A DNA stretch of 64,000 nucleotides from IMG/VR virus record IMGVR_UViG_2703718817_000003; one strand, written 5' to 3'. The stretch comes from a virus (lineage: Duplodnaviria > Heunggongvirae > Uroviricota > Caudoviricetes). The notes beneath the pieces are model-generated. The model was not told where the DNA came from. It saw only the letters and a list, made by a program, of their open reading frames with translations, and did no database searches. Shown piece by piece: positions 12,640 to 47,217 of this stretch. Each line of letters opens with the position of its first letter. Position 1 is the stretch's first letter. Position numbers and translations under genes: made by a program.

Positions 12640-12715
12640 GCCGGTTTAGCTCAGTTGGTAGAGCAGTCGCTTTGTAAGCGAATGGTCAGCGGTTCGATCC
12701 CGTTAACCGGCACCA
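12640..12715 (+). tRNA. tRNA-Thr (anticodon UGU)
   Basis: Acceptor GCCGGTT/AACCGGC, D-arm GCTC-AGTTGGTA-GAGC, anticodon loop TTTGTAA, T-loop TTCGATC, CCA encoded. Confidence 0.85.
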
Positions 12716-12990: not shown

Positions 12991-13419
12991 GCGCAACGTT
13001 AAGAGTATTTGGCTAATTAAGCGAATGCCGGAAGCAGAACCGGATCACCAAATGCGTACAGGCGTCATCGCCGCCCAGTCAGCCAAATGCTCTTACCATT
13101 GCGGTGAATGCGGCTAAGCGCACGCGGAACAGTTAAAACAGTAAAGGTGGTCTTTTTACTGGCGTAACGAGCATCCATAAGTGATCCGGCGTTAATTGTT
13201 AACTGGTTAACGTCACCGGGAGGCACCCGGCACCGCAACCTAACAGCAATGGCGTTTTGTCTTAAAAGGTGGCTGCAAGTGATGGATTTTTGGGCGTTTG
13301 CCGATAAAAACCCGGAGTGGACATTATTGTTTCTGCTGGTGGTTGCATACGGGGTAGAGCAAGCGGCAAAAGCCTTACGCGGTTCTGGCAAAAAGCGTAA
13401 GCGTAATTAACAGTAATCT

Positions 13420-39543: not shown

Positions 39544-39587
39544 GTTTGATCAACCATAGCGGCGATGTAGACAAACCGGGTATTTCT

Positions 39588-40163
39588 ATGAAGCAAAGCT
39601 ATTGGGAGAAACAGACACAAAAAGCCCTGCAAAAACTGGCTGATCCGAAATGGCGGGAGGAACAAAGGGCAAAGCGTCTTCAGCAAGCTCAACGCCTGCA
39701 GCAGCGTGCGCGAGAAAAAGCCGCATCGCCTGAATATCGGCAAAAGAAAATTGAAAAAGCGAAGCAATATGAACAGCGAAGAAAAGAGAAGGCCGCTTCT
39801 GCTCCTGTCAAAAAAACTCGCGCGTCACGCGGCCTGAAAGGCAGAACACTCACAGCAGATGAGCGCCGGATACAAACTGCCATCGGTGCTCTCCCCTGCA
39901 TTGCCTGCCATATGCACGGACAGCATAGCCCTGTGGTATCCCTGCACCACATCTTCGGAAGAACAGCAGAGAACGCGCATAAATACGTCCTCCCTTTGTG
40001 TAAATGGCACCATCAACACGCAGCGCCAGCAGAGATCCGCGAGCAATACCCCTGGTTGGTTCCTGTTCATGCTGATGGAAAAATAGGCGGCAAAGCAGAT
40101 TTCAGGCGGCACAATGCTGATGAAATGACGTTGTATCAGATGGTGACTGAATTAATAAATTAA
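39588..40163 (+). CDS. ref: Ref-like HNH endonuclease (basic disordered N-terminus plus HNH/His-Me finger)
   Basis: K/R/Q-rich N-terminal ~75 aa; C-terminal CIACHMHGQHSPVVSLHHIFGR...LPLCKWHHQH HNH-type motif; alternative TTG start at 39546. Confidence 0.55.
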   Translation: MKQSYWEKQTQKALQKLADPKWREEQRAKRLQQAQRLQQRAREKAASPEYRQKKIEKAKQYEQRRKEKAASAPVKKTRASRGLKGRTLTADERRIQTAIGALPCIACHMHGQHSPVVSLHHIFGRTAENAHKYVLPLCKWHHQHAAPAEIREQYPWLVPVHADGKIGGKADFRRHNADEMTLYQMVTELIN

Positions 40164-40174
40164 TTTTCTAACAT
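40160..40174. promoter_or_regulatory. Operator-like motif TTAATTTTCTAACAT overlapping the ref stop
   Basis: Recurring motif family. Confidence 0.4.
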
Positions 40175-40494
40175 TTTAAGTTGAATTGTGAGATCCGCCG
40201 TTGTACATTCACAACCGATTGGTACACCGGTCAACTTTTTGAGACAAACCGTTTGGTTTTTCGTATGATTGCCGCCGCCATACCAATGGCGGTGCAATAT
40301 AGGTGGCTGAAAAGCCCCCGTTGACTCACGGTGTTCCAACCTTTATTGCGCCGCCACCAGACCGTGGAACAGTCGATGGCGGCTCCGAAAGCAAGGAGTC
40401 ACTACACTATGAACAGCTACTGTCTTTTCCCATCACTCGTTATCCGCCACTCACGCGATAATCTGCATTCTTTACTCGCGCTGGGGGTGTCAAA

Positions 40495-40662
40495 ATGACC
40501 GTTCGCTATCTCAACTTTCAAATCCAGAACATCACTGGCGGTTGCTATGACTGGTTTGTCACTCTCGGAAAAGAAGTGATCACCGGAAAGCTGGATGAAG
40601 TGAAAGCTAAAGCAATGGCCTACGCCTGCAAGCAAGCCCAAAAGAAGAAAAGAAAAGCATAA
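40495..40662 (+). CDS. small basic protein (55 aa), hypothetical
   Basis: Not in ORF track; MTVRYLNFQIQNITGGCYDWFVTLGKEVITGKLDEVKAKAMAYACKQAQKKKRKA; followed by a terminator. Confidence 0.3.
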   Translation: MTVRYLNFQIQNITGGCYDWFVTLGKEVITGKLDEVKAKAMAYACKQAQKKKRKA

Positions 40663-40763
40663 TAAAACACACAGTTGCGCCCTGGCATTATCGTGGGGTA
40701 TATTTCTACGGCACCTTAGAAAAACGGGTGCCGGGATTGGAACCCCGGATAATGTCAAAGGCG

Positions 40764-40796
40764 ACACAGACGCCGAAAGCGTCTTTTTTTGTGTCA
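40764..40796 (+). terminator. Rho-independent terminator
   Basis: GACACAGACGC-CGAAA-GCGTCTTTTTTTGTGTC. Confidence 0.6.
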
Positions 40797-40975
40797 TGCC
40801 ATCGCGCAGCCATACGTAGCGTTTAGCTCAGAGATCAATGGTAGTGCTGGCTGGGCTGCCGAAAGGCAGGCCGGTTCCCTTTGACGCCGGTAGTTCCAAC
40901 CCAGTCAGTGCTACCGCCATTGAGATTGGAACCTCACGCGGTAGCTCCTTAACTTAGTCAAAGGAGGCTGCCAAT

Positions 40976-41191
40976 ATGGCTACTATCCCCACCCCAACTC
41001 ATTCTGAATTTATCTGGCGTTTCTATTCCTGCCAAAAACACCTCTATATCTGCGTCATGGCTGCTACCGAAGCAGAAGCGCGCTCATACCTTCCCGAAGA
41101 ACCCTGCATTTTTGCTGCTCGCTTCACTCTTGATGCGATGGAGATCCTCAATTACTGGAATCTGCCGATGAACTGCGTGGAGGTGCACTGA
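40976..41191 (+). CDS. hypothetical small protein
   Basis: 71 aa ORF with AAAGGAGG Shine-Dalgarno; coupled to the next gene. Confidence 0.45.
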   Translation: MATIPTPTHSEFIWRFYSCQKHLYICVMAATEAEARSYLPEEPCIFAARFTLDAMEILNYWNLPMNCVEVH

Positions 41192-42132
41192 TGAATCTGT
41201 CCATCTCTCAAAAAGCGACAATGACCAGTATTGAAATCGCGGAACTGGTAGGTAAGCGTCATGATAATGTGAAGCGTACCATTGAAGTATTAACTAAAGG
41301 TGGTGTCATTCAATTTCCTCAAATTGAGGAAATTGAAAATAAACAATCAGTTGGCCCTCGTCGATTTTCCAAGGCTTACATCTTTGAAGGCGAACAAGGC
41401 AAGCGTGACAGTATCATTGTCGTTGCGCAGCTCTCTCCGGAATTCACCGCCCGGCTGGTGGACCGCTGGCGCGAACTGGAGAATGCCAGGGGACCGTTAA
41501 AATCAAAAGCCGAAATCCTGGCTGAAATGGCGCAAATGCATCTTGAGCATGAACGCCGGATCAACGCTGTTAATGCCCAGGTAGCCGAAGTATCGGCACA
41601 AGTGTCCAAAGTCGCTGAAACCGTCGAGCAGATCAAGAAAGGCAACATACCAGAAGGTTACATTGGCTATCGCCAGTTAGCGGCGAAATGCGGCCTGACT
41701 GAAGCCAAATGCCGCAACCTGGTCAACGCTTACCGGATCCCCACAGATACGCATGAGTTTTTGACTCCCGACGGTTTGCTTGCGCGACGCTCAATTGTGG
41801 CCCTGGCCCCCTTCCGGAAAGCCTTTAAGCAGGTGATGTCGGAGGCAGAACCACGTAACAAACGCTGGTATCATCCCAGGATGGGGCTATTTCAGGCCAT
41901 TCACCATCCTGTGCCTGAAAGTCCAAAGGCAAACCTGTCGTTGCATACCGCCAGAGAGAAGATTAAAACAGGGTATGCAACCGTATGCCGTCGAGCATCC
42001 TGGCCTGAAAGTGTCTGGGTATGGCCCGAAAGAGGCTCACGGAAAAACTGGCGCACCATTCGCGACGGCAAGATCTGTGCGATTGATTTACAGCCAGAAG
42101 ATGTAGCAGCGACCGACTGGATTGTTAGTTAA
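41191..42132 (+). CDS. Rha-family phage regulatory protein (antirepressor-like) fused to a C-terminal DUF2829-like domain
   Basis: 313 aa; N-terminal TSIEIAELVGKRHDNVKRTIEVL matches the Rha signature; central coiled coil; C-terminal ...VCRRASWPESVWVWPE...ATDWIVS. Confidence 0.6.
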   Translation: MNLSISQKATMTSIEIAELVGKRHDNVKRTIEVLTKGGVIQFPQIEEIENKQSVGPRRFSKAYIFEGEQGKRDSIIVVAQLSPEFTARLVDRWRELENARGPLKSKAEILAEMAQMHLEHERRINAVNAQVAEVSAQVSKVAETVEQIKKGNIPEGYIGYRQLAAKCGLTEAKCRNLVNAYRIPTDTHEFLTPDGLLARRSIVALAPFRKAFKQVMSEAEPRNKRWYHPRMGLFQAIHHPVPESPKANLSLHTAREKIKTGYATVCRRASWPESVWVWPERGSRKNWRTIRDGKICAIDLQPEDVAATDWIVS

Positions 42133-46986: not shown

Positions 46987-47187
46987 GTGTTTGCAAGGAC
47001 ATGAATAGTACACTATTATGATGGTGAAGGAATGGTACATGTTGAACCAAACCTTCGAGGATGCAGCAGACTGAAGAAATTCAGACATCCCGCAACCAGC
47101 TATCATAACAGGTCAAACCAGTTGTGATACTTGGTCAAGGCAAAGTCCGGTAATGGCGTTCTGAATACCAGAAAATAATTTCTGGCG

Positions 47188-47217
47188 AAGCCCACCTTAA
47201 GGTGGGCTTTGTTATTT
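47188..47217. terminator. Bidirectional Rho-independent terminator
   Basis: AAGCCCACC-TTAA-GGTGGGCTT with T-rich tracts on both sides, between convergent genes. Confidence 0.6.

What the first reader, a model, noticed from the sequence alone, without database searches (positions are those of the whole stretch)
40175..40975. 800-bp region upstream of the Rha operon: unannotated 55-aa ORF, stable hairpins and a tRNA-like fragment
A 55 aa basic ORF (40495-40662) is followed by hairpins (CGGCACC...GGTGCCG; CCGGG-ATTGGAA-CCCCGG) and a strong terminator. The segment 40814-40924 contains GTTTAGCTCAG and GGTAGTGC, closely matching the D-arm of the tRNA-Thr gene at 12640, and ends in ...GCTACCGCCA. 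This looks like a tRNA-derived remnant or tRNA-like regulatory RNA.
Basis: seen in the sequence. Interest (0 to 1): 0.45.

Follow-up and report, generated by a model that had tools for sequence, protein, structure and literature searches.

The report
Phage antisense-RNA immunity switch, duplicated
The "tRNA-like fragment" and hairpins are the well-known C4 antisense-RNA switch that keeps a P1/D6-type plasmid prophage dormant; the only new item is a second, unannotated C4-like RNA just upstream that appears to gate the small 55-aa gene.

Summary
The window is a D6-like P1-type phage-plasmid, and 40175-40975 is its immI (antirepressor-control) region.

- **"tRNA-like" segment:** this is the C4 antisense RNA (Rfam RF01695, 77 bits, 40834-40921).
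- **Two hairpins plus terminator:** these are the isrK/a1b1 leader RNA (RF01394, 63 bits, 40711-40789).
- **Downstream genes:** icd and a Rha-type antirepressor follow.

The C4 loops match two target pairs, a1/b1 and a2/b2. Site b2 covers the icd ribosome-binding site. Loops and targets change together across seven lineages, P1 included.

C4 does mimic a tRNA end (acceptor-like stem, discriminator base, CCA), as expected for an RNase P substrate. The 11-mer shared with tRNA-Thr lies in a variable leader and is not conserved.

New here is a second C4-type RNA (C4*, 40282-40361, 42 bits, just below Rfam's cut-off). Its fold is supported by compensatory changes in 13 of 26 pairs. Its target sites cover the ribosome-binding site of a 29-codon icd remnant whose stop overlaps the start of ORF55. 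ORF55 is a real, narrowly distributed gene of unknown function.

The C4/isrK part is already known. The C4*/ORF55 module is a new member of a known kind.

The parts
40162..40174 (+). Operator-like 13-mer AATTTTCTAACAT, a candidate binding site for the D6-type C1 repressor, 7 nt upstream of a -35 box
   Evidence: The motif (up to 2 mismatches) occurs 16 times in the window against 2.3 expected, often as divergent pairs. The motif and promoter arrangement are conserved in the divergent loci L039 and L075. It is analogous to Oc4/Op51 in the P1 record. Binding is inferred.
40181..40209 (+). Promoter-like site, TTGAAT-17-TACATT (outer, presumably repressor-controlled immI promoter)
   Evidence: Read from the sequence. 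The hexamers are conserved while the spacers diverge in L039 (TTGATA-17-TACATT) and L075 (TTGACT-17-TACATT). Not tested experimentally.
40241..40269 (+). Promoter-like site, GAGACA-17-TATGAT, directly upstream of C4*
   Evidence: Found by the promoter scan. Conserved in L003 (GAGACA-17-TATCAT) and similar in L075.
40282..40361 (+). C4*, a second unannotated C4-type antisense RNA. The predicted mature RNA is G40288..A40359, ending in discriminator A plus CCA. b'* is UGACUC at 40322-40327 (hairpin-2 loop); a'* is UGUUCCA at 40332-40338.
   Evidence: Rfam C4 scores 42.3 bits against a cut-off of 45, E=2e-6. Homologues score 38-40 bits in D6 and other plasmids and 48.1 bits in L076/L077. Fold z-score is -5.65. 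13 of 26 pairs carry compensatory changes and 92.9% of cells are paired, against 32-54% in slid controls.
40365..40401 (+). Predicted C4* target pair: a2* UGGAACA (40365-40371) and b2* GAGUCA (40396-40401). The latter overlaps the Shine-Dalgarno AAGGAG (40393-40398).
   Evidence: Complementarity with shuffle P(both sites)=9.5e-4. This is the only occurrence of the bipartite pattern in 64 kb. The geometry matches a2/b2 of the main module. L075 has different sequences that are still complementary. L076 lacks downstream sites.
40409..40498 (+). 29-codon leader ORF, a remnant of an icd-like gene. Its stop overlaps the ORF55 start (ATGA).
   Evidence: In L003, L005, L012 and L075 the same position holds a full 61-aa Icd-like gene (NF033153, 47 bits). 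Frame and the ATGA overlap are retained in 25 of the 26 distinct sequences of this architecture compared, including variants with indels; in the 26th, L006, a 1-nt insertion fuses the leader in frame to ORF55. The peptide sequence is unconstrained: 6 synonymous against 38 non-synonymous differences.
40495..40662 (+). ORF55, a real small protein gene of unknown function (phrog_7786; D6 orf85)
   Evidence: Variable sites by codon position are 12/7/33. It matches phrog_7786 at E=9e-42 and no Pfam or NCBIfam family. Only 16 clusters at 90% identity and 14 representatives at 50% identity were found in the large protein databases. The AlphaFold2 model has pLDDT 85.5 (four strands plus a helix) with no PDB fold match.
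40675..40703 (+). Promoter-like site, TTGCGC-17-GTATAT, placing a transcription start near 40710, the 5' end of the isrK-like RNA
   Evidence: Read from the sequence. The isrK model match starts at 40711. The site is conserved among D6-like loci. Inferred.
40711..40789 (+). isrK / c4-a1b1 RNA: hairpin 1 (40710-40732), hairpin 2 presenting a1 UUGGAAC (40737-40743), b1 GUCAAAGG (40754-40761), and an intrinsic terminator (40768-40790)
   Evidence: Rfam isrK RF01394 scores 62.7 bits against a cut-off of 50; c4-a1b1 RF03163 scores 22 bits. The terminator was found by the scan. Fold. The a1/b1 complementarity to C4 has shuffle P=5.5e-4.
40791..40839 (+). Variable 5' leader of pre-C4. It contains the 11-mer GTTTAGCTCAG (40821-40831) shared with tRNA-Thr.
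   Evidence: The 22 nt that include the 11-mer are absent in L010, L023 and L039 and altered in D6 and RCS47.
40834..40921 (+). C4 antisense RNA. The predicted mature RNA is G40840..A40919. b' is CCUUUGAC at 40878-40885 (hairpin-2 loop); a' is GUUCCAA at 40893-40899.
   Evidence: Rfam C4 RF01695 scores 77.1 bits against a cut-off of 45, E=2.4e-13. Fold z-score is -5.9. 14 of 27 pairs carry compensatory changes and 97.9% of cells are paired, in an alignment that includes P1 c4. The 5' end is aligned to the annotated P1 c4 5' end.
40926..40967 (+). C4 target pair: a2 UUGGAAC (40926-40932, in the loop of a GAG/CUC hairpin) and b2 GUCAAAGG (40957-40964), overlapping the icd Shine-Dalgarno AAGGAGG (40961-40967)
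   Evidence: Shuffle P(both sites)=5e-5. The bipartite pattern occurs only at a1b1, at a2b2 and, as its complement, at C4 itself in 64 kb. a'/a1/a2 and b'/b1/b2 change together in 7 lineages, and the same procedure recovers the annotated P1 sites.
40976..41191 (+). icd-like gene (71 aa). Its stop overlaps the antirepressor start (TGATG).
   Evidence: NF033153 phage_ICD_like at 49.4 bits; phrog_1426. Overlap seen.
41191..42132 (+). Antirepressor (Rha/Ant family, 313 aa)
   Evidence: phrog_63 'anti-repressor Ant' at E=1.5e-60; Pfam Phage_pRha at 37.5 bits. D6 orf82 is annotated as anti-repressor Ant.

Best explanation
The region is the immI-type antirepressor-control region of a D6-like (P1-type) phage-plasmid. 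It is built from two tandem C4 antisense-RNA modules.

**Module 2 (40675-42132) is the classical P1 circuit.**
1. A transcript starts near 40710 and first forms the isrK/a1b1 RNA.
2. Most transcripts stop at its terminator. Read-through transcripts carry pre-C4.
3. RNase P cuts at G40840, guided by the tRNA-like acceptor stem and the G-CCA end.
4. Mature C4 pairs through a' (GUUCCAA) and b' (CCUUUGAC) with a2 and b2 on the same mRNA and occludes the icd ribosome-binding site.
5. Because icd and the antirepressor are translationally coupled, no antirepressor is made and the prophage stays repressed.
6. The a1/b1 sites on the leader or short RNA compete for C4.

**Module 1 (40162-40662) is a diverged paralogue.** An invariant C4* RNA pairs with a2*/b2* over the ribosome-binding site of a 29-codon icd remnant. 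Translation of that remnant is needed, through an ATGA overlap, to translate ORF55, a small conserved protein of unknown role.

**Shown here:** family membership, folds, covariation, complementarity, gene order and coding status.

**Inferred:** transcription starts, RNase P cleavage, the repression itself, and the function of ORF55.
For: **Identity of the element.** The region is 93.7% identical to phage D6. Similar sequence is found in 119 PLSDB plasmids, 112 of which cover at least 80% of the query.

**Rfam matches.** C4 scores 77.1 bits and isrK 62.7 bits, both above their cut-offs. C4* scores 42.3 bits.

**Folds.** Compensatory changes support both structures: C4 in 14 of 27 pairs (97.9% paired) and C4* in 13 of 26 (92.9% paired). 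No shuffle reached the observed values, and the slid-register controls show 29-54% pairing.

**Loop-target pairing.** Shuffle P(both sites) is 5e-5 for C4 downstream, 5.5e-4 for C4 upstream and 9.5e-4 for C4* downstream. The bipartite target patterns occur nowhere else in 64 kb.

**Covariation of loops with targets.** a'/a1/a2 and b'/b1/b2 change together in seven lineages. The same script recovers exactly the a1, b1, a2 and b2 coordinates annotated in the P1 record.

**Downstream genes.** icd is NF033153. The antirepressor is phrog_63/Phage_pRha. Their stop and start codons overlap.

**Leader ORF.** It is a remnant of a full icd-like gene that is present in L003, L005, L012 and L075. The ATGA coupling is retained in 25 of the 26 distinct sequences compared; in L006 a 1-nt insertion fuses the leader in frame to ORF55.

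**ORF55.** It is under purifying selection. It always lies next to a C4-type module, in four different architectures.

**Prior annotation.** isrK, c4, icd and rha are annotated in the same order in the D6-like plasmid pYU39_89 (PMC6799933 S1 table).

**Mechanism of c4.** PMC12197685 and the notes in the P1 record.
Against: - No expression data are available. Every promoter is a consensus match of only 8-9 of 12 positions.
- C4* falls below Rfam's cut-off in this window.
- The b'*-b2* helix is only 6 bp, with shuffle P=0.07 for that site on its own.
- Upstream a1*/b1* sites are weak in this window (P=0.06).
- In L076/L077, C4* has upstream sites but no convincing downstream sites at the ORF55 ribosome-binding site. 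Control of ORF55 by C4* is therefore not universal.
- In L039, ORF55 has no C4* at all.
- L075's C4* lacks the 3' CCA.
- ORF55 gave no functional clue from Pfam, NCBIfam, PHROGs or a fold search.
Confidence: 0.85

Rival explanations
1. One reading: 40814-40924 is a tRNA-derived remnant, or a tRNA-like RNA evolutionarily related to the phage's own tRNA-Thr.
For: - There is an exact 11-mer shared with tRNA-Thr, and GGTAGTGC resembles GGTAGAGC. The local alignment score is reached by 0.8% of shuffles.
- The predicted C4 is 76 nt plus G-CCA.
- ARAGORN at 80% of its default thresholds calls 40840-40915 'tRNA-Thr(ggt)'. Shuffled sequence gives 0.4 such hits per 951 nt.
Against: - ARAGORN at default settings and the Rfam tRNA model find nothing.
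- The segment scores 77 bits as C4, with the three-helix C4 fold supported by covariation.
- The 11-mer lies outside the mature RNA, in a leader that is deleted or altered in relatives.
- GGTAGTGC is the strand that pairs with GCTACC and reads GGTGGG or GGTGAC in other lineages.
Confidence: 0.03
2. C4* and the 29-codon ORF are a decaying duplicate of a C4-icd module with no regulatory role. ORF55 would then be expressed constitutively or from the outer repressor-controlled promoter alone.
For: - C4* is below the Rfam cut-off.
- Its icd partner is truncated in most elements.
- The b'*/b2* helix is only 6 bp, and the upstream sites are weak.
- L039 expresses an ORF55 homologue without C4*, and L076 lacks downstream sites.
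Against: - The C4* fold is maintained by compensatory changes in 13 of 26 pairs across lineages whose ORF55 is only 47-63% identical.
- The loops are invariant in all D6-like copies, while the flanks and the module-2 loops vary.
- The leader ORF keeps its frame and the ATGA overlap despite indels, even though its peptide sequence is unconstrained.
- L075 has different but still complementary a'*/a2* and b'*/b2* sequences.
- The L076/L077 copy passes the Rfam cut-off.
Confidence: 0.22
3. The isrK-like RNA is the primary trans-acting regulator, as in Salmonella Gifsy-1. The short terminated RNA would activate translation of the downstream ORFs on read-through transcripts by remodelling an inhibitory structure. 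The C4-shaped segment would act mainly as part of an mRNA (the 39-aa ORF 40838-40957, equivalent to Gifsy-1 orf45 and to RefSeq's 'ash family protein') rather than as a free antisense repressor.
For: - The isrK model match is 62.7 bits.
- Hershko-Shalev et al. 2016 showed trans-activation by short IsrK, pairing of IsrK G28/G31 with positions 159/162 of the downstream segment, and a stable processed RNA (STnc1160) downstream of IsrK (PMC4825925).
- RefSeq annotates the C4 gene as an 'ash family protein' CDS.
Against: - The 39-aa ORF matches no NCBIfam model at E<=0.1 and has no obvious Shine-Dalgarno sequence.
- The segment is a canonical C4 with the a2/b2 geometry identical to P1, where C4 is a demonstrated repressor.
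- Covariation tracks RNA pairing.
- The two views are compatible if IsrK/a1b1 acts by titrating C4. That reconciliation is my inference.
Confidence: 0.3

Closest known systems
immI operon of bacteriophages P1 and P7 (Oc4/Op51, P51a/b, a1 b1, c4, a2 b2, icd, ant1/2)
   Same: The order of elements is the same: a repressor operator next to a promoter, then a1/b1, a 77-nt-class C4 RNA with a closing stem and two hairpins, then a2/b2 with b2 over the icd ribosome-binding site, and icd overlapping the antirepressor start. The C4 fold co-varies with P1 c4. Specificity changes of a few nucleotides in the loops are matched in both targets, as in P1/P7 heteroimmunity.
   Different: The nucleotide sequence is not alignable to P1 outside icd. 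The antirepressor is a Rha-family protein rather than Ant1/Ant2. The a1/b1 segment ends in a strong intrinsic terminator (isrK type). A whole extra module (C4*, icd remnant, ORF55) precedes it, and P1 has no counterpart of that.
isrK-orf45(STnc1160)-anrP locus of Salmonella Gifsy-1 prophage (RF01394)
   Same: The leader RNA has the same covariance-model family, with two hairpins and a terminator. It is followed by a processed stable RNA and an antirepressor whose translation depends on an upstream small ORF (PMC4825925).
   Different: Here a separate icd gene lies between C4 and the antirepressor. The published model treats the C4-shaped segment as an ORF and gives IsrK an activating role. No AntQ-type antiterminator was identified next to this locus: ref lies upstream.
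Annotated immI-like region of D6-like plasmid prophage pYU39_89 (and phage D6 orf82-orf87)
   Same: The gene order is identical: ref, hypothetical protein (ORF55), isrK, c4, icd, rha, pmgF (PMC6799933 S1 table; D6 record).
   Different: Neither that re-annotation, nor the D6 GenBank record, nor RefSeq annotates the C4* RNA between ref and ORF55. RefSeq annotates no RNA here at all and calls the C4 gene 'ash family protein'. The window's C4 has a different specificity from D6: a is UUGGAAC against UUGAGAC, and b is GUCAAAGG against GCAAAAGG.
CI RNA / seqA-seqC immunity of satellite phage P4 (same Rfam clan, CL00128)
   Same: It is a processed small RNA flanked by upstream and downstream complementary sites. 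P4 DNA aligns to window 40829-41015 at 72% identity. Hershko-Shalev et al. note IsrK as a structural homologue of P4 seqA.
   Different: P4 CI acts by premature transcription termination of replication genes, not by blocking an icd/antirepressor ribosome-binding site (as described in PMC4825925). I did not test which mode applies here.

Membership tests
C4 antisense RNA (Rfam RF01695), main copy 40834-40921 | Covariance-model score at or above the curated cut-off (45 bits) | tested here: met
   77.1 bits, E=2.4e-13, full-length match 1-87
C4 antisense RNA (Rfam RF01695), main copy 40834-40921 | Long closing stem enclosing two hairpins, maintained by compensatory substitutions | tested here: met
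   97.9% of cells paired; 14 of 27 pairs changed on both sides; 0 of 500 shuffles as high; slid controls 29-52% (alignment includes P1 c4)
C4 antisense RNA (Rfam RF01695), main copy 40834-40921 | a' and b' complementary to downstream a2/b2, with b2 over the ribosome-binding site of the next ORF, and to upstream a1/b1 | tested here: met
   7-nt and 8-nt perfect matches at 40926/40957 and 40737/40754; shuffle P=5e-5 and 5.5e-4; pattern unique in the window; triple covariation in 7 lineages
C4 antisense RNA (Rfam RF01695), main copy 40834-40921 | 5' end generated by RNase P from a precursor; stable RNA of about 77 nt in lysogens | not testable with these tools
   Only the substrate features are visible: acceptor-like stem from G40840, G40916 plus CCA at 40917-40919, and a 5' end aligned with the annotated P1 c4 5' end
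C4 antisense RNA (Rfam RF01695), upstream copy C4* 40282-40361 | Covariance-model score at or above the curated cut-off (45 bits) | tested here: not met
   42.3 bits in the window and 38-40 bits in D6-like homologues. The homologous element in L076/L077 scores 48.1 bits.
C4 antisense RNA (Rfam RF01695), upstream copy C4* 40282-40361 | C4 fold maintained by compensatory substitutions | tested here: met
   92.9% paired; 13 of 26 pairs changed on both sides; 0 of 500 shuffles as high; slid controls 32-54%
C4 antisense RNA (Rfam RF01695), upstream copy C4* 40282-40361 | Loops complementary to a downstream site pair that covers a ribosome-binding site, and to an upstream pair | tested here: inconclusive
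   Downstream pair present (7 nt and 6 nt over the Shine-Dalgarno; P(both)=9.5e-4; unique in the window) and re-created with different sequence in L075. The upstream pair is weak in the window (P=0.06). L076 has an upstream pair but no downstream one.
isrK / c4-a1b1 RNA (RF01394 / RF03163) | Covariance-model score at or above cut-off; two 5' hairpins plus an intrinsic terminator | tested here: met
   isrK 62.7 bits against a cut-off of 50. Terminator 40768-40790. The c4-a1b1 model scores only 22.4 bits against 46.7, so membership holds for isrK and not for the narrower RF03163 model.
isrK / c4-a1b1 RNA (RF01394 / RF03163) | Hfq binding and trans-activation of downstream translation (Gifsy-1 IsrK) | not testable with these tools
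   Known only from PMC4825925 for Salmonella
P1-type immI operon | icd-like ORF translationally coupled to an antirepressor gene downstream of C4 | tested here: met
   icd is NF033153 at 49.4 bits. The antirepressor is phrog_63 at E=1.5e-60. Stop and start codons overlap (TGATG, 41189-41193).
P1-type immI operon | Outer promoter controlled by the C1 repressor through an operator | tested here: inconclusive
   A dispersed 13-mer occurs 16 times against 2.3 expected, with one copy abutting the TTGAAT-17-TACATT promoter-like site. Binding by the D6-type C1 was not tested.
tRNA / tRNA-derived element | Cloverleaf detectable by tRNA models (ARAGORN default, Rfam RF00005) | tested here: not met
   No hit in 40175-40975. 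There is only a relaxed-threshold ARAGORN call that coincides with the C4 closing stem.
tRNA / tRNA-derived element | tRNA-like sequence blocks conserved in relatives | tested here: not met
   The 11-mer GTTTAGCTCAG is altered in D6 and RCS47 and deleted in L010, L023 and L039

The most novel reading that the evidence does not exclude
D6-like phage-plasmids run a two-tier tandem antisense circuit inside one immunity operon.

- **Upstream tier:** a sequence-invariant C4 paralogue (C4*) gates a tiny, lineage-restricted protein (ORF55, a new family with no detectable fold relatives) through an icd-derived leader peptide.
- **Downstream tier:** a C4 that varies combinatorially gates icd and the antirepressor. 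At least five a/b specificity combinations occur among near-identical elements.

ORF55 would then be a new immunity-circuit effector. One possibility is that it stands in for a P1 immunity function that D6-like phages lack, since Lxc was reported missing in PMC6799933. In this window the two RNAs share the a' sequence (GUUCCA) and could cross-talk.
Probability: 0.35. Interest if true: 0.5.

Novelty: new member of a known kind. Interest (0 to 1): 0.3.

Why it matters
For the finding as written, very little is new. C4/isrK-controlled antirepressor operons have been textbook P1 biology since 1990, and Rfam detects them automatically.

Three points are still useful:

1. **Annotation error.** RefSeq annotates none of these RNAs in D6-like plasmids and instead calls the C4 gene an 'ash family protein' CDS. 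The eight best-matching complete E. coli genomes listed all carry this annotation; similar sequence occurs in 427 of 5426 genomes. This is a systematic error worth correcting.

2. **An overlooked regulatory module.** The unannotated C4* paralogue and its coupled leader-ORF55 unit sit in a widespread family of E. coli, Salmonella and Shigella phage-plasmids. They give the orphan 55-aa protein a testable regulatory context.

3. **A natural experiment in specificity.** The a/b specificity types of the main C4 vary combinatorially, while C4* is invariant. This offers a way to study how antisense specificity (heteroimmunity) diversifies.

Tried and rejected
**tRNA hypothesis.** ARAGORN at default settings, the Rfam tRNA model, pairwise alignment to all five tRNAs in the window, and relaxed ARAGORN with shuffled controls. 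Rejected as homology. Kept only as terminal mimicry for RNase P.

**ORF55 function.** All of the following were uninformative:
- Pfam, PHROGs and NCBIfam scans.
- The word-indexed protein search: 16 clusters, all D6-like.
- The exhaustive profile search: 14 hits, a few 48-57-aa relatives, and some repeat-protein artefacts.
- An AlphaFold2 model with a Foldseek search of the PDB: best E-value 1.8, with only weak Hfq/Sm-like and PWWP-like noise.

**RNAduplex on whole segments.** It gave misleading long helices that open the RNAs' own stems. I replaced it with exact loop-to-target matching and shuffles.

**Naming.** My first a/b naming was reversed relative to P1. I corrected it after reading the P1 record.

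**Upstream a1*/b1* sites for C4* in the window (40218-40236).** Not significant (P=0.06). The hairpin there may simply be the ref terminator.

**Unavailable sources.**
- The D6 genome paper (PMC5800970), the P1 genome paper (PMC523184) and Hartmann 1995 (PMC41593) are not held. Whether Gilcrease & Casjens already noted a second c4-like element next to ref could not be checked.

**Minus-strand ORF 40417-40797 (D6 orf84).** Considered spurious. It overlaps ORF55, whose codon-position pattern supports plus-strand coding, and it overlaps the isrK RNA.
Full report
**1. What the window is**

Positions 40100-41000 are 93.7% identical to Escherichia phage D6, a P1-like plasmid prophage. They are 99.3% identical to E. 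coli plasmids of about 94 kb. Similar sequence occurs in 119 PLSDB plasmids of Escherichia, Salmonella and Shigella, and 112 of them cover at least 80% of the query.

The surrounding genes, in order, are:
- ref (RecA-dependent nuclease, 39546-40163);
- the 800-bp region in question;
- an icd-like gene (40976-41191);
- a Rha/Ant-family antirepressor (41191-42132).

**2. Checking the observation**

- the 55-aa ORF at 40495-40662;
- the two hairpins at 40710-40732 and 40731-40748;
- the terminator at 40768-40790;
- the strings GTTTAGCTCAG (40821), GGTAGTGC (40840) and GCTACCGCCA (40910).

GTTTAGCTCAG really is an exact 11-mer also found in tRNA-Thr.

**3. What the pieces are**

A scan against all Rfam families gives two matches above the curated cut-offs inside the region:
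- C4 antisense RNA (RF01695) at 40834-40921: 77.1 bits against a cut-off of 45.
- isrK (RF01394) at 40711-40789: 62.7 bits against a cut-off of 50.

The annotated P1 record provides the reference anatomy: C1 operator Oc4, two promoters, a1, b1, the 77-nt c4 RNA, a2, b2 (over the icd ribosome-binding site), icd, and ant overlapping icd. The window has the same anatomy:

| Element | Sequence | Position |
|---|---|---|
| a' | GUUCCAA | 40893-40899 |
| a1 | UUGGAAC | 40737 |
| a2 | UUGGAAC | 40926 |
| b' | CCUUUGAC | 40878-40885 |
| b1 | GUCAAAGG | 40754 |
| b2 | GUCAAAGG | 40957 |

Site b2 overlaps the icd Shine-Dalgarno AAGGAGG.

Shuffling gives P=5e-5 for the downstream pair and P=5.5e-4 for the upstream pair. 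In 64 kb the bipartite pattern occurs only at a1b1, at a2b2 and, as its complement, in C4 itself.

Across seven lineages (window, D6, RCS47, L010, L039, L076, P1) the loops and both target sets change together. The same script returns exactly the a1/b1/a2/b2 coordinates annotated in P1.

The C4 fold has compensatory changes in 14 of 27 pairs.

Among the D6-like loci I collected, five a/b combinations occur. The window has the commonest one, and it differs from D6 at both sites.

**4. The tRNA idea**

C4 is not a tRNA by any model. GGTAGTGC is the 5' strand of the closing stem and pairs with GCTACC. It is followed by G40916 and CCA, that is, an acceptor-like stem, a discriminator base and CCA.

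This is the determinant expected for an RNase P substrate, which the C4 precursor is known to be (Hartmann et al. 1995, cited in PMC11143913). It also explains why ARAGORN at 80% of its default thresholds calls exactly 40840-40915 a tRNA.

The 11-mer shared with tRNA-Thr lies in the 5' leader that would be removed. It has three changes in D6 and one in RCS47. The 22 nt around it are missing in L010, L023 and L039. I treat it as coincidence.

**5. The part nobody had annotated**

A second C4-model hit lies at 40282-40361. It scores 42.3 bits, E=2e-6, just under the cut-off.

*Where else it occurs.* The same element is present in D6 and all D6-like loci at 38-40 bits. It is also present in a divergent 90-kb viral contig (L076/L077, whose ORF55 is only 47% identical), where it passes the cut-off at 48.1 bits.

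*The fold.* An alignment of six distinct copies shows 92.9% pairing. Compensatory changes occur in 13 of 26 pairs, against 32-54% pairing in slid registers. It is a maintained structure, not debris. It ends in A-CCA (40356-40359).

*The targets.* Its loops, b'* UGACUC and a'* UGUUCCA, match GAGUCA (40396, overlapping the Shine-Dalgarno AAGGAG) and UGGAACA (40365). The spacing mirrors a2/b2 of the main module. Shuffle P(both sites) is 9.5e-4, and this is the only such pair in the window.

*The leader ORF.* The ORF served by that Shine-Dalgarno sequence has 29 codons (40409-40498) and ends in ATGA on the ORF55 start codon.
- In L003, L005, L012 and L075 the same position holds a full 61-aa Icd-like gene (NF033153), followed by ORF55. 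The 29-codon ORF is therefore an icd remnant.
- Its frame and the ATGA overlap are retained in 25 of the 26 distinct sequences compared, including two with indels. In the 26th, L006, a 1-nt insertion fuses the leader in frame to ORF55.
- Its peptide sequence drifts freely: 6 synonymous against 38 non-synonymous differences.

This is the signature of a coupling ORF.

*ORF55 itself.* It is under purifying selection, with variable sites by codon position of 12/7/33.

*Caveats.*
- In L075 the loop and target sequences differ from the window but remain complementary.
- In L076 only upstream sites are evident.
- In L039 ORF55 has no C4*.

**6. ORF55**

It belongs to phrog_7786 (unknown function) and to no Pfam or NCBIfam family. 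The family is tiny: 16 clusters at 90% identity and 14 representatives at 50% identity in the two large protein searches.

The model is four short strands and a basic C-terminal helix (pLDDT 85.5), with no PDB fold match.

Its only functional clue is position. It is always next to a C4-type module, and in architecture A it sits where the antirepressor sits in P1.

**7. Transcription signals (inferred)**

- A 13-mer, AATTTTCTAACAT, occurs 16 times in the window against 2.3 expected. One copy lies at 40162-40174, abutting a TTGAAT-17-TACATT site. Motif and hexamers are conserved in L039 and L075 while their spacers diverge. This parallels P1's Oc4.
- Internal promoter-like sites precede C4* (40241-40269) and the isrK RNA (40675-40703, placing a start near 40710).

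**8. What is known and what is not**

- isrK, c4, icd and rha are already annotated, in this order, in the D6-like plasmid pYU39_89, with nothing annotated between ref and the ORF55 homologue (PMC6799933).
- The D6 GenBank record and RefSeq annotate no RNA here.
- RefSeq calls the C4 gene an "ash family protein" CDS.
- I could not read the D6 genome paper.

**9. Verdict**

The core is known biology, a P1-type immI circuit. The C4*, leader and ORF55 module is a new member of that kind. Its structure and conservation are well supported, but its regulatory role is only inferred.

Noticed in passing
window 8821-59237 (16 sites; for example 11121-/11140+, 14905-/14924+, 34666-/34685+, 39512-/39531+, 40162+, 51134-/51153+): The 13-mer AATTTTCTAACAT (up to 2 mismatches) occurs 16 times against 2.3 expected, often as divergent pairs 19 bp apart. 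It looks like the dispersed operator set of the D6-type C1 repressor. One pair sits just upstream of ref.
   Followed up: partly
window 40838-40957 (+); L004:3178-3297; L081:1879-1998: RefSeq/PGAP annotates a 39-aa 'ash family protein' CDS that is simply the translation of the C4 RNA gene. No ncRNA is annotated in these plasmids. The ORF matches no NCBIfam model at E<=0.1. By position it probably corresponds to Gifsy-1 'orf45'.
   Followed up: partly
L015:2680-2806 (IMGVR_UViG_2579778873_000001): One D6-like contig has a clean deletion between the a1 and a2 repeats (UUGGAAC), removing b1, the terminator and the whole C4 gene while keeping C4*, icd and the antirepressor. This could be a natural c4-less variant or an assembly artefact.
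   Followed up: no
L001, L002, L004, L006-L039, L076 (module-2 C4 loops): Closely related D6-like elements carry at least five combinations of a' (GUUCCAA, GUCUCAA, AGACCAA) and b' (UUUGAC, UUUUGC), each matched in both target sets. The C4* loops are invariant. RCS47, a Punavirus, shares this module at 94.8% identity, which implies exchange of immunity modules between D6-like and P1-like phages.
   Followed up: partly
L006 and proteins P0004, P0005, P0007 (83-85 aa): A 1-nt insertion (AAAATG to AAAAATG) fuses the 29-codon leader in frame to ORF55, giving products of about 84 aa in some elements.
   Followed up: no
L040-L042:3172-4861: An IS200/IS605-family element (TnpB/OrfB plus Y1 transposase) is inserted into the 3' end of ORF55. 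It changes the protein's C-terminus (P0014) and replaces the isrK-C4-icd-ant module.
   Followed up: no
window 47025-47210 (+) and 13100-13237 (+): There is a strong sroH RNA match (RF00372, 113 bits against a cut-off of 80). A sub-threshold STnc100-like match (40.8 bits against 47) lies inside the tRNA cluster.
   Followed up: no
window 40417-40797 (-): A 126-aa minus-strand ORF (D6 'orf84' is its shorter form) overlaps ORF55 and the isrK RNA. It is probably a spurious gene call in the D6 record.
   Followed up: no
pYU39_89 67900-69160 (not in this window): D6-like plasmids are reported to carry a further c4-icd_2-kilA-rha_2 module next to repL (PMC6799933 S1 table). With C4*, such elements would hold three C4-type RNAs. 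Only one above-threshold C4 is present in this 64-kb window.
   Followed up: no
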